Assembly: GCA_043741175.1 (NCBI GenBank)
Contig: JAYUAV010000533.1
Span: 1 to 26,048, forward strand
Direction: 5' to 3'
Source: Verrucomicrobiota bacterium
GTDB lineage: Bacteria > Verrucomicrobiota > Verrucomicrobiia > Limisphaerales > JADLHS01
Length of the DNA stretch: 26,048 nt
The position numbers and the translations under genes were made by a program. How positions within the stretch are numbered: position 1 is the first letter of the stretch; every line of letters begins with the position of its first letter. The notes beneath the pieces are model-generated. The model worked only from the letters and a program-made list of their open reading frames with translations. It ran no database searches and was not told the DNA's origin. Below, piece by piece: positions 10,052 through 19,832 of this stretch.

Positions 10052-11251
10052 GTGCCGACCGACATCAAATCCCTGACCCGCGAAGAATTGGAAGCCCAGT
10101 TCGCTGCGTGGGAACAGCCCGTCTATCGTGTGAAGCAACTCATGGACTGGCTCTACGTCCAGCGCGTGACCGATTGGGAAGCGATGACGAACCTGCCCAA
10201 ACTGCTGCGCGAAAAACTCCGGCACGATTACACGCTCGGTTCGTTGCAACTTCTCCGCAAACACGGCGCGCGCGACACCACGCAGAAATTTCTCTGGAAA
10301 CTCGCGGATCATTCGCTCATCGAAAGCGTGTTGATCCCCGCCAACCCTGCACTCTACGGCGAAGCCAGTGATCGCCACACACTCTGCGTCTCCACGCAAG
10401 TCGGCTGTGCGTATGGCTGCAAGTTCTGCGCGAGCGGCTTGGATGGTTTCAAACGCAACCTGCTCCCGCACGAAATCGTCGAACAAGTCATGGGCGTCGA
10501 GCGGTGGGCCATCCAGGAAAGCTCCAAGTTGCAAGTTGAAGGTGGCAAGTTGGAGAGTGCCGAACCTGCAACCTGCAACCTGCAACCTGCAACTTCCACC
10601 CCACGCGCCGCCTCCGGCGCAACCAGCAGCGGCTTCCCCGGCGGTCGCCTCGTGGACAACCTCGTCATCATGGGCATGGGCGAACCGCTCGCCAACTACG
10701 ACAACCTGCTCAAAGCATTGCGTCTGCTGAATTCTCCGTGGGGCGGACGCATCGGTGCGCGGAAGATCACTGTTTCCACCAGCGGCCTCGCGCCGCAAAT
10801 CCGCAAGCTCGCGGATGAGCCGGAACAATTCTCCCTCGCCATCTCGTTGCACGGCGCGACGGATGAAGTGCGTGGACGAATCATGCCGGTGAACCGCAAG
10901 TATCCGATCAAGGAACTCACCTCTGCGTTGGATTATTATCAGGCCGAACGCGGACGCATGATCACGTTTGAATACATCCTCATCAAAGGCGTGAACGATG
11001 GACTGGATCAAACCAAGCCGCTCGGCGTTCTGGCGAAACGACTCAACGCCAAGGTGAATCTGATTCCCTACAACACGGTTGAGGGATTGGAGTGGTCACG
11101 ACCAGACGAAGCCGTCTGCGAAAAATTCCTCGCCGCGATGAAGGCGCAAAAAATTGTCACCACTCTGCGCCGGGAAAAGGGACATGACATTGACGCGGCG
11201 TGTGGGCAACTAAGGTTGAAGACGGAGCGGGAGATGGTAGGGATTTTTTAA
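10052..11251 (+). CDS. rlmN: Dual-specificity 23S rRNA/tRNA adenine C2-methyltransferase RlmN (radical SAM)
   Basis: TLCVSTQVGCAYGCKFCASG (CxxxCxxC), MGMGEP, ISLH, FEYILIKGVND and IDAACGQL. Likely GTG start at 10052 (PTDIKSLT). Confidence 0.97.
   Translation: MPTDIKSLTREELEAQFAAWEQPVYRVKQLMDWLYVQRVTDWEAMTNLPKLLREKLRHDYTLGSLQLLRKHGARDTTQKFLWKLADHSLIESVLIPANPALYGEASDRHTLCVSTQVGCAYGCKFCASGLDGFKRNLLPHEIVEQVMGVERWAIQESSKLQVEGGKLESAEPATCNLQPATSTPRAASGATSSGFPGGRLVDNLVIMGMGEPLANYDNLLKALRLLNSPWGGRIGARKITVSTSGLAPQIRKLADEPEQFSLAISLHGATDEVRGRIMPVNRKYPIKELTSALDYYQAERGRMITFEYILIKGVNDGLDQTKPLGVLAKRLNAKVNLIPYNTVEGLEWSRPDEAVCEKFLAAMKAQKIVTTLRREKGHDIDAACGQLRLKTEREMVGIF
10517..10595. repeat. Heptamer-repeat palindrome inserted in-frame in rlmN
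   Basis: AAGTTGC AAGTTGA AGGTGGC AAGTTGG (10526-10553) faces (AACCTGC)x4 + AACTT (10563-10595). Confidence 0.85.
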
Positions 11252-11388: not shown

Positions 11389-11571
11389 AACGGCATCGCC
11401 AACCGTGGCGCGTCCGTGCGCGTCCCGCACAGCTTCGTGAACGCTGGCTACAAGGGCTACCTTGAAGACCGACGTCCGAACTCGCAGGGCGACCCCTACA
11501 AGATCGCAAGCCGCATCTTGCAGACGATTGCCACCGTGCCGACACCCGGCGCGAAGAAGGCGAAGAAGTAA
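11389..11571 (+). pseudogene. glnII: Orphan 3' fragment of type II glutamine synthetase
   Basis: Translates as NGIANRGASVRVPHSFVNAGYKGYLEDRRPNSQGDPYKIASRILQTIATVPTPGAKKAKK*. This is the GS C-terminal RGAS.R.P / YLEDRRP region, with GSII-type PHSFV..GYKG and NSQGDPY. Preceded in-frame by TGA, with no start codon. Confidence 0.85.
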
Positions 11572-11600
11572 TTCAACTCCGGCGTAACGCTGGAAGCTTG

Positions 11601-11638
11601 AAACAGGCGTGACCGCGAGGTCACGCCTGTTTTGTTTT
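11601..11638 (+). terminator. Strong intrinsic terminator after the glnII fragment
   Basis: AAACAGGCGTGACC-GCGA-GGTCACGCCTGTTT perfect 14-bp stem with a GNRA loop, followed by TGTTTT. Confidence 0.9.
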
Positions 11639-15441: not shown

Positions 15442-15505
15442 AGGTTGGTCTTTGGCAAAAGCGCTGTTGTGCAAATGACTCTTGGTTTGGTTAATTAAGA
15501 ACGTG

Positions 15506-17275
15506 ATGAAAACTCAAAACCAAGCCACGCCTCCAAACAAGTTCGTCACAGACTGGGTGAGCGACATGGCAGCACTCTGCCAACCGGATCGCATCCATTG
15601 GTGCGACGGTTCGGAATCGGAAAAACAATCACTCACCGCCGAGGCCGTCCAAGCCGGAATCCTGATTCCGCTCAATCCACATAAACTTCCGGGCTGTTAC
15701 TATCACCGCTCAAATCCCAACGACGTCGCACGCGTCGAGCAATGCACCTTCATCTGCACGGATACCGAGGACGAAGCGGGGCCTACAAACAACTGGGCAG
15801 CACCCGCCGAGATGTACACCAAACTCCACGATCTCGCGCGGGGCAGCATGAAGGGGCGCACGATGTATGTCGTGCCGTACCTGATGGGGCCGCCGGGTTC
15901 GCCGTTGAGCAAGGTCGGTGTTGAACTCACGGACTCGATCTACGTCGTGTTGAGTATGAGAATCATGACGCGCATGGGTACCATCGCGTGGAAACAACTC
16001 GGCGCGGGCAACGCTTTCAATCGTGGTCTGCATTGCACTCTCGATCTGAATCCAGACCGCCGTTACATCGCTCATTTCCCGCAAGACAACGCCATCATCT
16101 CCCTCGGCTCGAATTATGGCGGCAATGTTTTGCTCGGCAAAAAATGTCTCGCGCTACGCATCGGCTCGTTTCTCGGTCGCAAGCAAGGGTGGATGGCGGA
16201 ACACATGTTGATCCTCGGAGTCGAATCGCCCAAGGGTGAAAAAACTTATGTGGCAGCGGCGTTCCCCAGCGCGTGTGGCAAAACAAATTTTGCCATGCTC
16301 GTGCCGCCCGAACATTTCACCGGCTGGAAAGTCTGGACGGTTGGAGACGACATAGCGTGGATGAAACCCGGCCCGGACGGACGGCTCTACGCGATCAATC
16401 CTGAAGCGGGTTACTTCGGCGTCGTGCCGGGAACAAATTACAAGTCCAACCCCAACGCGATGGCCGCCATGTCGCGCGACACGATCTACACCAACGTCGC
16501 ACTCACGCCCGATGGCGACGTTTGGTGGGAAGGTAAGGATGGCCCGCCGCCAGCCGAGTGTCTCGATTGGCGCGGCAACAAATGGACGCCGGACTCGAAA
16601 GAAAAAGCCGCGCATCCCAACAGCCGGTTCGCCGCGCCGATGACCAACAACCCCATGCTCGCGCCTGAAGTCAATGATCCCAACGGCGTGCCGATCAGCG
16701 CGATCATTTTTGGCGGTCGCCGCGCGGACACCATGCCGCTCGTGTATCAGGCGTTCAATTGGATTCACGGCGTCTATATCGGCGCGACGATGGGTTCGGA
16801 GATGACCGCCGCCGCCGCTGGCGTTCAAGGTCAAGTGCGCCGCGACCCGATGGCGATGCTTCCGTTCTGCGGTTACAACATGGGCGAATACTTCCGGCAC
16901 TGGATTCAAATCCGCAAAGCACTCAAGTATCCACCGCGCGTCTTCAACGTGAACTGGTTTCGTCGCGACAAGGACGGCAAATTCCTCTGGCCCGGCTACG
17001 GCGAGAACATGCGCGTGCTCAAGTGGATTGTGGATCGTTGTCGCGGACGCGCCGACGCGAATGAAACCCCGCTCGGCTGGGTGCCCGGCGCGAAGAGTTT
17101 CGATCTCGAAGGCATGGAGGGTTTTGATGCCGCGCGATTGGAAGCCGCGCAGACCATCAACTACGAGGATTGGCGGCGCGAAGTGCTGATGCAGGATGAA
17201 CTGTTCTTCAAACTCTACTCACACCTCCCAAAAGAACTCATCTTCCAACGCGAACTTCTCGTTGCGCGGTTGTAA
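15506..17275 (+). CDS. pckG: Phosphoenolpyruvate carboxykinase (GTP)
   Basis: [65 protein letters not shown] and [15 protein letters not shown] 15506 chosen as start. Confidence 0.97.
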
Positions 17276-17429: not shown

Positions 17430-17535
17430 AAATCCGCTTTTGTGGTAACGGTAAAGCGACCATCGTTGCTTGTCGTTGTGGGTGTGAACCGCAGAACGCA
17501 TCAGGAATATCCGTAAGGACTTTTGCTTTTCTAGC

Positions 17536-17551
17536 TGGCACTCGCACTGCT
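17536..17551 (+). promoter_or_regulatory. Putative sigma-54 promoter with no downstream ORF
   Basis: TGGCACT-CGCA-CTGCT with correct -24/-12 spacing. Confidence 0.6.
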
Positions 17552-17561
17552 AAGTTGAGGT

Positions 17562-17700
17562 TGTCGTCGCGGCAACGGGTTGGTTGTCGCAGCTCGCGCG
17601 AGTTTCATGATTGCGCGAGATCGTCCGACAAATGGGTTGGAACTAGGTGGTTGGTTGGTTCGGCGGCGGGCGTTTGGTTGCGCTCGCCGCCGTTTTGTTT
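17562..17700 (+). ncRNA. Candidate sigma-54-dependent G/U-rich sRNA (~140 nt)
   Basis: Bounded by the sigma-54 motif and a strong terminator. Contains stem-loops and repeated GGTTG, with no credible ORF. Confidence 0.5.
17661..17700 (+). terminator. Intrinsic terminator
   Basis: CGGCGGCGGGCG-TTTGGTTG-CGCTCGCCGCCG 12-bp stem (one G.U) followed by TTTTGTTT. Confidence 0.85.
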
Positions 17701-17850
17701 GCCAACATCTCGCTGCGGCATTTTGCCCGTGCTGTTCATTTTCGCCCAGCGAACCTCTGGCTGCTTCTACTGAACTCGCTCACATTGAAAAATTATTTTT
17801 CCCTTTGGAATCAATGTGTTTCTCGCGTCCATGAATCTCTTTCACCGTGC

Positions 17851-17866
17851 TGGCATCGTTGCTGCA
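17851..17866 (+). promoter_or_regulatory. Sigma-54 promoter of glnK-amtB
   Basis: TGGCATC-GTTG-CTGCA, ~100 nt before the glnK ATG, preceded by an A/T tract. glnK-amtB is a classic sigma-54/NtrC target. Confidence 0.75.
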
Positions 17867-17913: not shown

Positions 17914-18303
<390 letters not shown>

Positions 18304-18338: not shown

Positions 18339-19832
18339 ATGAAACGATTTCTCCTCACTCTCGCACTGATCGCCAGCACAGCATTAACCGCTGTGAACTC
18401 GCGAGCCGAAGACGCTCCCGCGACGAACGCTCCCGCTGCCGCTGCACCGGCCAAGGCTGATCCCGATCACGAACAACGCATCGCCGATCTCGAAGCCTAC
18501 ATCAACAATGTCGGTCGCGGTGCAGACGCCGTGGACGCCAAGGTCAACTCCAAGATTTCTGCGGCTGGCCCTGGCCACAACTCGTGGATGATGACCAGCT
18601 CGGCACTCGTGCTGTTCATGTCCCTGCCCGGATTGTTCCTGTTCTACGGCGGTTTGGTTCGCCGGAAAAACATTCTGTCCGTCATCGCACAATGCTTCGG
18701 CATCGCGGGACTTGTCACGATCCTATGGGTGCTGTTCGGTTACAGCGCGGTGTTCGCAGACGGCAAAGACGTGATACCCGGCGTTTGGGGTAACATGAAA
18801 TACGCCATGCTCAACGGCGTGGATAGCTTGCTCAATACGAATTACTCCTACTGGGTTTCGCACAACGTCTTCTCCATGTATCAACTCATGTTCGCGATCA
18901 TCACCCCTGCCCTGATCCTCGGCGCGATTGCCGAGCGCATGAAGTTTTCGGCCATCCTGCTCTTCATCGGTATCTGGATGGTTGTGGTTTATTTCCCGCT
19001 CGCTCACATGGTCTGGGGCATCAACGGCGCGATGAACGGGGTGTGGAACGCAGGCGCAACGATCAAGGCGATTGACTTCGCGGGCGGCACAGTCGTTCAC
19101 ATGTCGTCAGGTTGGTCGGCATTGATCCTCTGCATCATCCTAGGCAAACGGCGCGGCTTCCCGAAAGAACCGATGCCTCCGCACAGCATGGTACTTTGCG
19201 CCGTGGGCACTGGCATGTTGTGGGTCGGCTGGTACGGCTTCAACGCTGGCTCTGCTCTCGCGGCTGACGGCGTCGCGGCAAACGCCTTCATGACCACCAC
19301 CATCGCGACGGCAGTGGCTTCCTTCGTGTGGCCTGTGTTGGAATGGATTGTTCGCGGCAAGCCCAGCGTGCTTGGATTCTGCTCCGGCGCGGTTGCGGGA
19401 CTCGTCGTGGTGACACCGGCTTGCGGATTCATTGACGCGAAAGGCGCACTCGTCATCGGCCTCGCGGCGGGCATCATCCCGTGGTTTTTCTGCTACAAGG
19501 TCAAGGGCTGGTTCGGCTACGACGACGCACTCGACACGTTCGGTGTTCACGCCGTCGGCGGAACGTTGGGCGCGCTGCTCACCGGCTTCCTCGCCACGCC
19601 GAGCGTCAATGCAAACTTGAGCACAAACCTCAAGGACATCGTCGGCAAATCGCTCTGGCTCGAACAACTCAAAGCCATCGGCGTCACGCTCGCACTGGCA
19701 ATCGTCGGCACGGTCGTCATCGCCTTCATCGTGAAGGCCGTCCTCGGTGGATTACGCCCGGCTGAAGAAGTCGAAATGGCTGGCCTCGACCTCGCTGAAC
19801 ACGGCGAAGAAGGCTACCACAACGCCCGCTGA
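18339..19832 (+). CDS. amtB: Ammonium transporter AmtB
   Basis: YQLMFAIITPAL, AERMKF, DFAGGTVVH, WVGWYGFNAGS and DDALDTFGVH (twin His present). N-terminal signal peptide and linker. Confidence 0.97.
   Translation: MKRFLLTLALIASTALTAVNSRAEDAPATNAPAAAAPAKADPDHEQRIADLEAYINNVGRGADAVDAKVNSKISAAGPGHNSWMMTSSALVLFMSLPGLFLFYGGLVRRKNILSVIAQCFGIAGLVTILWVLFGYSAVFADGKDVIPGVWGNMKYAMLNGVDSLLNTNYSYWVSHNVFSMYQLMFAIITPALILGAIAERMKFSAILLFIGIWMVVVYFPLAHMVWGINGAMNGVWNAGATIKAIDFAGGTVVHMSSGWSALILCIILGKRRGFPKEPMPPHSMVLCAVGTGMLWVGWYGFNAGSALAADGVAANAFMTTTIATAVASFVWPVLEWIVRGKPSVLGFCSGAVAGLVVVTPACGFIDAKGALVIGLAAGIIPWFFCYKVKGWFGYDDALDTFGVHAVGGTLGALLTGFLATPSVNANLSTNLKDIVGKSLWLEQLKAIGVTLALAIVGTVVIAFIVKAVLGGLRPAEEVEMAGLDLAEHGEEGYHNAR

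What the first reader, a model, noticed from the sequence alone, without database searches (positions are those of the whole stretch)
17536..17700. Candidate nitrogen-linked sigma-54 sRNA with GGUUG repeats complementary to the glnK leader
Seen: a -24/-12 motif (17536-17551), predicted start ~17562, and a 12-bp terminator with U-tract ending at 17700. No credible ORF lies between them, and glnK-amtB has its own separate sigma-54 motif at 17851. GGTTG occurs seven times in 17559-17680, mostly outside or at the edge of stems (stems: 17560-17576, 17584-17631, terminator). GTTGGTTGT (17579-17587) is the exact complement of ACAACCAAC at 17944-17952, 13-21 nt before the glnK ATG. Established: GcvB uses G/U-rich seeds to repress C/A-rich translational enhancers; CrcZ, NrsZ and GlnZ are sigma-54-dependent sRNAs; multi-motif sRNAs can also titrate RNA-binding proteins. 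Inference: an undescribed sRNA of the nitrogen regulon that either base-pairs with A/C-rich leaders or sponges a GGUUG-binding protein. This is my best candidate for a new system here. Caveat: both sequences are low-complexity, so a 9-nt match alone is weak.
Basis: partly seen in the sequence, partly recalled or inferred. Interest (0 to 1): 0.8.

Follow-up and report, generated by a model that had tools for sequence, protein, structure and literature searches.

The report
Sigma-54 small RNA gene beside glnK
A conserved, folded, non-coding RNA gene of about 140 bases, with its own sigma-54 promoter and terminator, sits just upstream of the ammonium-uptake genes glnK-amtB in one genus of uncultured Verrucomicrobiota; it matches no catalogued RNA family, it is probably a nitrogen-linked regulatory RNA, and what it targets is unknown.

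Summary
The element is a real gene. Homologues occur once per genome in 16 of 24 genomes of the same GTDB genus (Verrucomicrobiota MAGs), always 265-295 nt upstream of glnK-amtB, while the upstream neighbour varies. All 16 keep a TGGCAY-N5-YTGCT box, which the RNA model did not include, and a GC-rich terminator with a U-tract. Of 34 base pairs, 24 show changes on both sides; 95% of cells are paired, against 33-55% in slid controls. The unpaired G/U-rich tract (AAUGnGUUGG...GGUGGUUGG) is nearly invariant. There is no Rfam match, no conserved ORF, no conserved antiterminator and no ANTAR features. glnK keeps its own sigma-54 box in all genomes, including genera that lack the RNA.

The specific claim of targeting the glnK leader is not supported. 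A 9-nt match occurs at 4.6% of gene starts, pairing does not co-evolve across species, and C/A-rich leaders are general in this genome. Expression is unproven: the metatranscriptome contigs overrun both predicted transcript ends.

Best reading: an independent sigma-54-dependent sRNA whose G/U-rich single strand pairs with C/A-rich leaders, possibly helped by an RRM protein, since no Hfq or CsrA was found. It is a new RNA family of a known kind. The scan had not noted it on other DNA.

The parts
17536..17551 (+). Sigma-54-type promoter P1 (TGGCAC-N5-CTGCT; GG at -24, GC at -12)
   Evidence: A box of this form is present in all 16 homologues at the equivalent place, although the RNA model did not include it.
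17562..17700 (+). Predicted sRNA transcript of about 139 nt. The 5' end is inferred from the -12 element; the 3' end is the terminator U-tract.
   Evidence: BLAST conservation in relatives starts at the -24 box and ends at the terminator. CM R1 gives 150 bits here and 113-160 bits in ten relatives. The 5' end is not mapped.
17562..17630 (+). 5' three-way domain: P1 17562-17568/17624-17630 encloses hairpin P2 17570-17576/17583-17589 (loop GGGUUG 17577-17582) and hairpin P3 17593-17601/17611-17619
   Evidence: RNAalifold consensus. Pairs with changes on both sides: helix 1, 6 of 7; helix 2, 4 of 6; helix 3, 7 of 8. In this genome two of the seven P1 pairs are mismatched.
17631..17660 (+). Single-stranded G/U-rich linker AAUGGGUUGGAACUAGGUGGUUGGUUGGUU; the candidate seed or protein-binding tract
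   Evidence: It is the best-conserved stretch that lies outside helices: mean top-residue frequency 0.80, against 0.71 for paired columns. It is mostly predicted unpaired across homologues.
17661..17700 (+). Intrinsic terminator: 13-bp stem 17661-17692, loop UUGGUU, U-tract 17693-17700
   Evidence: Seven of 13 pairs change on both sides, and the five basal pairs are invariant in all 16. No conserved alternative pairing appears when the 3' arm is removed.
17732..17749 (+). Conserved box CTGTTCATTTTCGCCCAG between the terminator and glnK's promoter; a possible activator-binding (enhancer) site. This is inference.
   Evidence: It aligns in all 15 loci, and a similar box sits upstream of glnK in a genus without the RNA (G024). 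It is unique in this genome.
17832..17844 (+). Inverted repeat TGAA-N5-TTCA directly upstream of glnK's -24 box
   Evidence: It is conserved in most loci of the genus. Its function is unknown.
17851..17866 (+). glnK-amtB's own sigma-54-type promoter P2
   Evidence: It is conserved in all 15 aligned loci and in glnK-amtB loci of other genera that lack the RNA.
17944..17952 (+). C/A-rich box ACAACCAAC in the glnK leader, complementary to 17579-17587
   Evidence: The complementarity is not above background and does not co-evolve.
17965..18303 (+). glnK (PII protein)
   Evidence: Pfam P-II, E 5.9e-33.
18339..19832 (+). amtB (ammonium transporter)
   Evidence: Pfam Ammonium_transp, E 1.2e-104.

Best explanation
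This is a separately transcribed regulatory RNA of about 140 nt. It is made from a sigma-54 promoter and so needs an ATP-dependent activator protein. Given its fixed place beside glnK-amtB, that activator is most likely the nitrogen-stress (NtrC-type) activator. Transcription ends at a strong intrinsic terminator. A variable but always folded 5' domain and the terminator hairpin flank a nearly invariant unpaired G/U-rich tract with (U)GGUUGG repeats. I infer that this tract base-pairs with C/A-rich, Shine-Dalgarno-less translation start regions of several mRNAs and lowers their translation, as the G/U-rich R1 region of GcvB does. A small RRM-type RNA-binding protein may assist, because Hfq and CsrA were not found. 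What is shown: the gene, its conserved promoter-like box and terminator, its structure, and the conserved single strand. What is inferred: expression, nitrogen control, the base-pairing mode and the targets. I put the existence of an independent non-coding RNA gene at about 0.85, and the base-pairing mechanism at about 0.45.
For: Sixteen homologues were found in 24 genomes of the genus, one per genome. Every one has a TGGCAY-N5-YTGCT box upstream, found independently of the RNA model. Covariation: 24 of 34 pairs change on both sides and 95% of cells pair, against 33-55% for slid partners; 0 of 500 shuffles reach this. G-U pairs, the U-tract and the promoter all favour the + strand. rpoN and at least 7 full-length activator genes are in the genome, and sigma-54 boxes of the same type sit in front of flagellar and pilin-like genes. 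No Rfam family matches, even at E up to 10. glnK's own promoter is conserved, also in genera without the RNA, so P1 is not glnK's promoter. No conserved antiterminator exists. CCAA-repeat hexamers are 1.7-fold enriched at -20..-1 of gene starts and no Shine-Dalgarno signal is seen. No Hfq or CsrA was found in this genome, no Hfq in five relatives 91-96% complete, and RRM_1 proteins are present in all six. In Hfq-less Bacteroides, an RRM-1 protein binds sRNAs built as a single-stranded seed plus terminator (PMC11697453).
Against: There is no clean evidence of a transcript. The one clearly RNA-library contig covering it (X2, depth 3.9, from a relative) runs 69 nt upstream of the -24 box and 31 nt past the U-tract, so it may be DNA carry-over or a longer transcript. 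No target stands out: genes with exact matches of 10 nt or more have no nitrogen theme, and glnK is unremarkable. No activator binding site was identified for P1. In some relatives only about 50 nt separate a tRNA gene from P1. Gene starts were called crudely, so target statistics are rough. The family is confined to one genus of MAGs, so the invariant synteny may only reflect its youth.
Confidence: 0.5

Rival explanations
1. The RNA is a decoy. Its four to seven GGUUG-type sites in single-stranded or loop positions bind and titrate a single-strand RNA-binding protein (for example one of the small RRM_1 proteins). It would then work like CsrB/RsmY or CrcZ, with a different motif and protein.
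For: The repeated motif sits mostly in unpaired positions and is conserved while the stems vary. Simple pairing searches found no convincing mRNA target. RRM_1 proteins are present in every genome checked, while Hfq and CsrA were not found.
Against: No protein with this specificity is known to me. No RNA-binding protein gene lies beside the RNA. There are only 3-7 sites, fewer than in CsrB or CrcZ (from my own knowledge of those RNAs). The same data fit a base-pairing seed equally well.
Confidence: 0.2
2. The RNA is a cis-acting leader of glnK-amtB. Transcription from P1 stops at the terminator unless a factor or ligand allows read-through into glnK, as in an attenuator, riboswitch or ANTAR-type antitermination. 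Alternatively, P1 activity affects P2 by interference.
For: The position upstream of glnK-amtB is invariant in 16 of 16 genomes, while the upstream neighbour varies between PEPCK and tRNA-Pro. Earlier notes of this scan describe ANTAR leaders before amtB-glnK in other phyla. RNA-library contigs run past the terminator.
Against: A conserved sigma-54 promoter lies between the terminator and glnK, and it is the only one in genera without the RNA. No conserved alternative pairing competes with the terminator. The P2 hexaloop GGGUUG lacks the A1/G4 pattern, and no hairpin overlaps the terminator. No ANTAR domain scores above the cut-off in 24 genomes of the genus, although that search rang in no control genome. 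No T-box or riboswitch model matches.
Confidence: 0.12
3. The G-tracts of the linker fold into a two-layer G-quadruplex, and that shape (perhaps dependent on cations) is the functional unit rather than the linear sequence.
For: Every homologue, including the divergent ones, keeps at least four GG tracts with short spacers in the linker, for example GGUGGUUGGUUGG.
Against: This is pattern-based only. Two-layer RNA quadruplexes are weak (from my own knowledge). The U positions between the G-tracts are conserved too, which a quadruplex does not require.
Confidence: 0.04
4. It is a conserved DNA-level element, such as promoter or enhancer architecture of glnK, and is not a functional RNA.
For: Expression is unproven. 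The element adjoins conserved regulatory DNA of glnK.
Against: Compensatory changes in four helices, strand-specific G-U pairs and a terminator with a U-tract are signatures of selection on an RNA.
Confidence: 0.05

Closest known systems
NrsZ of Pseudomonas aeruginosa (NtrB/C- and RpoN-dependent, nitrogen-regulated sRNA; PMC4253122)
   Same: Both are free-standing sRNA genes with a sigma-54 promoter that sit beside nitrogen-regulatory genes, and both are expected to be induced by nitrogen limitation.
   Different: There is no sequence or structure match (Rfam scan). NrsZ is made of repeated stem-loop modules and is processed. The RNA here has one three-way 5' domain, a G/U-rich single strand and a terminator. 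The phylum differs and there is no Hfq.
GcvB (G/U-rich R1 seed pairing with C/A-rich leaders of amino-acid transporter mRNAs; from my own knowledge, no paper read here)
   Same: Both have a conserved unpaired G/U-rich tract whose complement is the C/A-rich type of leader. Such leaders are enriched before start codons in this genome.
   Different: GcvB depends on Hfq and is controlled by GcvA/GcvR through a sigma-70 promoter. Here no Hfq was found, the promoter is of the sigma-54 type, and no target is established. There is no Rfam match.
GlnZ of enterobacteria (PMC9731577) and NsiR4 of cyanobacteria (PMC9196836)
   Same: All are sRNAs tied to the nitrogen-stress regulon and physically or regulatorily linked to core nitrogen-assimilation genes.
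   Different: GlnZ is cut from the glnA 3' UTR, and NsiR4 is NtcA-dependent. The RNA here has its own sigma-54 box and lies upstream of glnK. There is no homology.
GibS/FopS sRNAs with the RRM-1 protein RbpB in Bacteroides thetaiotaomicron (PMC11697453)
   Same: The host lacks Hfq and CsrA and has small RRM-1 proteins. The functional module is a conserved single strand next to a Rho-independent terminator.
   Different: FopS is a multicopy family with a 5' seed and sigma-ABfr promoters. The RNA here is single-copy, has a structured 5' domain, and puts the conserved strand just before the terminator. There is no sequence similarity, and RRM binding is untested.
ANTAR antitermination leaders before glnK/amtB
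   Same: Both are a promoter-to-terminator RNA element upstream of ammonium-uptake genes.
   Different: Here there are no dual A1/G4 hexaloops, no hairpin overlapping the terminator, no ANTAR protein found, and a separate promoter lies between the terminator and glnK.

Membership tests
Sigma-54-dependent transcription unit | -24 GG and -12 GC elements with canonical spacing (TGGCAC-N5-TTGCW) | tested here: met
   17536-17551; conserved in all 16 homologues.
Sigma-54-dependent transcription unit | rpoN and enhancer-binding activators encoded in the genome | tested here: met
   One Sigma54_DBD gene; at least 7 full-length Sigma54_activat genes.
Sigma-54-dependent transcription unit | Activator (enhancer) sites serving this promoter | tested here: inconclusive
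   There is no conserved block upstream of P1 across the genus. A conserved box at 17732-17749, downstream of the terminator, might serve both promoters. This is inference only.
Sigma-54-dependent transcription unit | Transcription abolished without RpoN or the activator | not testable with these tools
   Needs genetics or in vitro transcription.
Independent trans-acting sRNA | Own promoter, own intrinsic terminator, no conserved ORF | tested here: met
   Indels of 1-2 nt break every overlapping frame.
Independent trans-acting sRNA | A discrete transcript of the predicted size | tested here: inconclusive
   The sequence is present in a freshwater metatranscriptome, but the contig overruns both predicted ends.
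Independent trans-acting sRNA | Conserved accessible seed with conserved targets | tested here: inconclusive
   The seed-like tract is conserved and mostly unpaired. No target rises above background.
Known Rfam RNA families (NrsZ, GcvB, CrcZ, glutamine riboswitch, T-box and the rest) | Score to the family covariance model | tested here: not met
   No hit at gathering thresholds. The best hit at E up to 10 is 15.6 bits, to unrelated families.
Hfq-dependent sRNA (GcvB-like) | Hfq present in the host | tested here: not met
   No Hfq in G000 (85% complete) or in five relatives 91-96% complete. The control genomes rang.
CsrB/RsmY-type protein sponge | CsrA/RsmA in the host and GGA motifs in loops | tested here: not met
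   No CsrA. The motif is GGUUG, not ANGGA.
ANTAR antitermination leader | Two hexaloop hairpins (A at position 1, G at position 4), the second overlapping the terminator; an ANTAR protein in the genome | tested here: not met
   The loop is GGGUUG, and a 30-nt single strand precedes the terminator. No ANTAR domain scores above the cut-off in 24 genomes, but the control genomes were silent.
Riboswitch / transcription attenuator | A conserved alternative (antiterminator) pairing, and direct continuity with the regulated ORF | tested here: not met
   The partners of the terminator's 5' arm differ between homologues. A conserved promoter lies between the terminator and glnK.

The most novel reading that the evidence does not exclude
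The RNA is a sigma-54-driven multi-site decoy. Its GGUUG repeats, possibly folded as a two-layer G-quadruplex, sequester a single-strand RNA-binding protein such as an RRM-1 protein, or the factor that loads Shine-Dalgarno-less C/A-rich leaders. Translation would thereby be reset globally under nitrogen starvation. This would be a CsrB/CrcZ-like titration system with a new motif and a new protein class, in an Hfq-less phylum.
Probability: 0.15. Interest if true: 0.75.

Novelty: new member of a known kind. Interest (0 to 1): 0.52.

Why it matters
In the full-text searches run here I found no regulatory RNA described for Verrucomicrobiota. The genus lacks the usual sRNA chaperones Hfq and CsrA, and its genome shows no Shine-Dalgarno signal. 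A covariation-supported sRNA with a sigma-54 promoter beside glnK-amtB gives a concrete entry point for two questions. How is nitrogen stress handled after transcription in this widespread freshwater and soil lineage? How do sRNAs find targets when leaders are C/A-rich rather than Shine-Dalgarno-based? The family is confined to one uncultured genus and its function is unknown, so its present value is as a well-defined candidate rather than a surprise.

Tried and rejected
1. glnK leader as a specific target. A 9-nt match is common (4.6% of starts). glnK ranks about 1524 of some 2880 in duplex energy with the linker. Cognate and non-cognate pairs do not differ, 7.0 vs 6.8 nt. I rejected it as evidence; it is not excluded as biology.
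2. Genome-wide target search by exact complement. The nine best candidates (DUF1501, GFO oxidoreductase, Ig-domain protein, AAA, methyltransferase, MFS, ABC ATPase and two unknowns) have no common theme.
3. RNA-seq support. Two run searches and one lay of four runs were made. The contigs do not respect the predicted ends, so the result is inconclusive.
4. Wider distribution. The exact-pattern scan of genome contigs returned only the nine species already known, plus chance hits. The CM search of 151 genomes of the order gave only weak hits outside the genus. Two of them (G091, G152) are (GGUUGG)n-plus-terminator elements that are not near glnK and have no sigma-54 box.
5. ANTAR, riboswitch and T-box readings: rejected.
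6. Coding potential: rejected.
7. Defining the activator box through glnA. The GSII gene starts 43 nt from a contig end, so its promoter is not assembled.
8. The second GGTTG cluster at 10569-10706 (-) is a tandem heptamer repeat inside a coding frame and is unrelated.

Full report
OBSERVATION. TGGCACTCGCACTGCT lies at 17536-17551 and TGGCATCGTTGCTGCA at 17851-17866. These are the only two matches to TGGCAYN5YTGCW in the window, against 0.15 expected. GGTTG occurs seven times on the + strand in 17559-17680. A 13-pair terminator (11 G-C pairs) at 17661-17692 is followed by TTTTGTTT. GTTGGTTGT at 17579-17587 is the exact complement of ACAACCAAC at 17944-17952. As RNA the stretch folds at -68.3 kcal/mol, z = -3.99. 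The flanking genes are a GTP-dependent PEP carboxykinase (15482-17275), glnK (17965-18303), amtB (18339-19832) and an RNase D-like gene.

IS IT A REAL ELEMENT? BLAST of 17500-17720 against 40 relatives hit 10 genomes. The matches began at the -24 box and ended at the terminator. Alignment of ten species shows an invariant TGG...TGCT promoter core, invariant G/U-rich segments, and stems that change by paired substitutions. RNAalifold gives helix P1 closing two hairpins (P2 and P3), a 30-nt single strand, and the terminator; 12 of 34 pairs already have changes on both sides.

I built a covariance model from the transcript only, without the promoter. It found one copy in 15 of 24 genomes of the genus. 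With filters off it found a sixteenth, upstream of one of the glnK-amtB copies of G005. On the 16-sequence alignment 95% of cells pair, against 33-55% when partners are slid. 24 of 34 pairs change on both sides, and none of 500 shuffles reaches the observed values. That alignment was fitted to the model, which inflates pairing somewhat, but the MAFFT-based result points the same way.

All 16 homologues have a TGGCAY-N5-YTGCT box upstream. In twelve it lies 19-21 nt before the model start. In G005 it lies some 40 nt before, at -474 from the glnK ATG. In three shorter variants (G002, G003, G019) it lies 60-85 nt further upstream, so their 5' domain differs. Because the model did not contain the promoter, this is independent confirmation.

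The overlapping mechanical ORFs have no family match and are broken by 1- and 2-nt indels in relatives. Titles of the relatives' records place the genus in Verrucomicrobiota, with one isolate named 'Pedos-510'. Some MAG labels there are clearly unreliable.

CONTEXT. Every homologue lies 265-295 nt upstream of glnK-amtB. The upstream neighbour varies. It is PEPCK only in this genome, and tRNA-Pro(UGG) in G011, G017, G023 and G018. glnK's own sigma-54 box is conserved in all 15 aligned loci. It is the only such box before glnK-amtB in four other genera of the order, and in genus members or second operon copies that lack the RNA. So P2 is the ancestral glnK promoter, and the P1-RNA-terminator unit is a genus-level addition placed just upstream of glnK's conserved regulatory DNA. 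That DNA includes the box CTGTTCAnTTTCGCyCAG (17732-17749), which also occurs in genus G024. The host has rpoN and at least seven activator genes. Boxes of the same type precede flgB, a FliW-like gene, a prepilin-like gene and a secretin-like gene at sensible distances.

WHAT IT IS NOT. No Rfam family matches at gathering scores or at E up to 10. No conserved antiterminator can be found. With the terminator's 3' arm removed, the 5' arm's partners differ from species to species and the 5' domain is unchanged. ANTAR features are absent: the P2 hexaloop is GGGUUG, a 30-nt single strand precedes the terminator, and no ANTAR domain scores above the cut-off in the 24 genomes. That last search rang in no control genome, so it carries little weight. 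The element is single-copy, so it is not a repeat family.

EXPRESSION. Two searches for public runs found freshwater and soil metatranscriptomes holding parts of the stretch. In the one lay allowed, a 269-nt contig of RNA run X2 covers 17532-17701 at depth 3.9. It has 18 differences, which match those of the G015 relative. The contig continues 69 nt upstream of the -24 box and 31 nt past the U-tract. A contig of run X9 (library type unknown) ends at 17700/17701. One of X8 (also unknown) passes the terminator. This shows presence in RNA libraries, not a bounded transcript. DNA carry-over cannot be excluded.

MECHANISM. The part common to all 16 is a closed 5' domain of variable content, the unpaired tract (CA)AAUGnGUUGG...GGUGGUUGG, and the terminator base CGGCGGCG/CGCCGCCG with its U-tract. 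Conservation of primary sequence in an unpaired tract, beside covarying stems, points to sequence-specific recognition, either of RNA or of a protein.

In favour of RNA pairing: the complement (CCAACC-type) is 1.7-fold enriched at -20..-1 of crude gene starts, and no Shine-Dalgarno signal is seen. That makes C/A-rich leaders the normal ribosome-loading region here.

Against a specific glnK target: exact matches of 9 nt or more occur at 4.6% of starts, against 3.4% for a same-sense control. glnK is about median in duplex energy with the linker. Five of the nine pairing bases are inside P2. Across 16 species, cognate RNA/leader pairs are no better than non-cognate ones. C/A-rich glnK and amtB leaders exist without the RNA. 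The best exact-match candidates share no theme.

Hfq and CsrA were not found here, Hfq was also not found in five near-complete relatives, and small RRM_1 proteins are present in all six. In Bacteroides, likewise without Hfq, the RRM-1 protein RbpB binds single-stranded parts of sRNAs built as seed plus terminator (PMC11697453). I therefore rank the readings as follows: a base-pairing sRNA for C/A-rich leaders, perhaps RRM-assisted, first; a protein decoy second; a cis-acting leader third. All homologues also keep at least four GG tracts in the linker, so a two-layer quadruplex is not excluded.

COMPARISON AND NOVELTY. In regulation it would work like NrsZ (PMC4253122). In seed chemistry it would work like GcvB. 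In chaperone context it resembles GibS/FopS-RbpB (PMC11697453). It is a member of none of these families (see Membership tests). GlnZ (PMC9731577) and NsiR4 (PMC9196836) are further nitrogen-linked sRNAs of different origin. Full-text searches found nothing on such an RNA in Verrucomicrobiota. The scan's earlier notes hold no look-alike on other DNA. It is a new RNA family of a known kind.

VERDICT. Interest is moderate, 0.52.

Noticed in passing
window 17732-17749 and 17832-17844: Two conserved DNA blocks lie between the RNA's terminator and glnK's sigma-54 box: CTGTTCAnTTTCGCyCAG, and the inverted repeat TGAA-N5-TTCA directly before the -24 element. The first also occurs upstream of glnK in another genus (G024). 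They are candidate binding sites for the nitrogen activator or a repressor.
   Followed up: partly
L062:1351-1428, L063:1336-1413, L065:1664-1741 (-), L067:1348-1425; tRNA 3'-end-like fragments in L068, L069, L076: In several relatives tRNA-Pro(UGG) lies only 50-110 nt upstream of the RNA's promoter. G003, G019 and G007 show only a ...TCGCTCCGACCA fragment, which ARAGORN does not call as a tRNA. This may be a remnant of rearrangement or integration at this tRNA.
   Followed up: partly
L071:1501-1591 (G091) and L074:1501-1589 (-) (G152): Two other families of the order have intergenic runs of (GGUUGG)3-4 directly followed by a strong terminator. They are not near glnK and have no sigma-54 box. 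They may be analogous G/U-repeat sRNAs.
   Followed up: partly
window 10569-10590 (-), and G000 contigs C13, C150, C275: Tandem heptamer repeats (GCAGGTT x4 here; GGTTGAR x4 elsewhere) lie inside long open frames. They account for part of the window's GGTTG excess (87 observed, 58 expected). The first stage had already flagged them as 'periodic palindromes'.
   Followed up: no
G000 contigs C12, C490, C282, C548: Intergenic sigma-54 boxes precede flgB, a FliW-like gene, a prepilin-type (LIELLVVIAIIAIL) gene and a secretin-like gene. The sigma-54 regulon here therefore covers motility and pilus genes as well as glnK.
   Followed up: partly
G000:C410:44 onward: The only glutamine synthetase found (type II-like, MAKYKLEYIWLDGY...) starts 43 nt from a contig end, behind a C/A-rich leader (AACAACAACCACGCAC). 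The first stage noted an orphan GSII 3' end at 11389-11638 of the window. Possibly an assembly break within or next to glnA.
   Followed up: no
G011:C2:335980-336077 (-) (L070) and G011:C2:337194-337403 (+): A weak second model hit (33 bits; a GGUUGG motif plus a terminator) lies 1.1 kb from one of the RRM_1 protein genes of G011. This is probably coincidence.
   Followed up: no
window 17602-17610: The P3 loop UUUCAUGAUU is complementary to AAUCAUGAAA, a frequent start-codon context in this genome (12 of the 9-mer hits). The loop is conserved only in the closest relatives.
   Followed up: no
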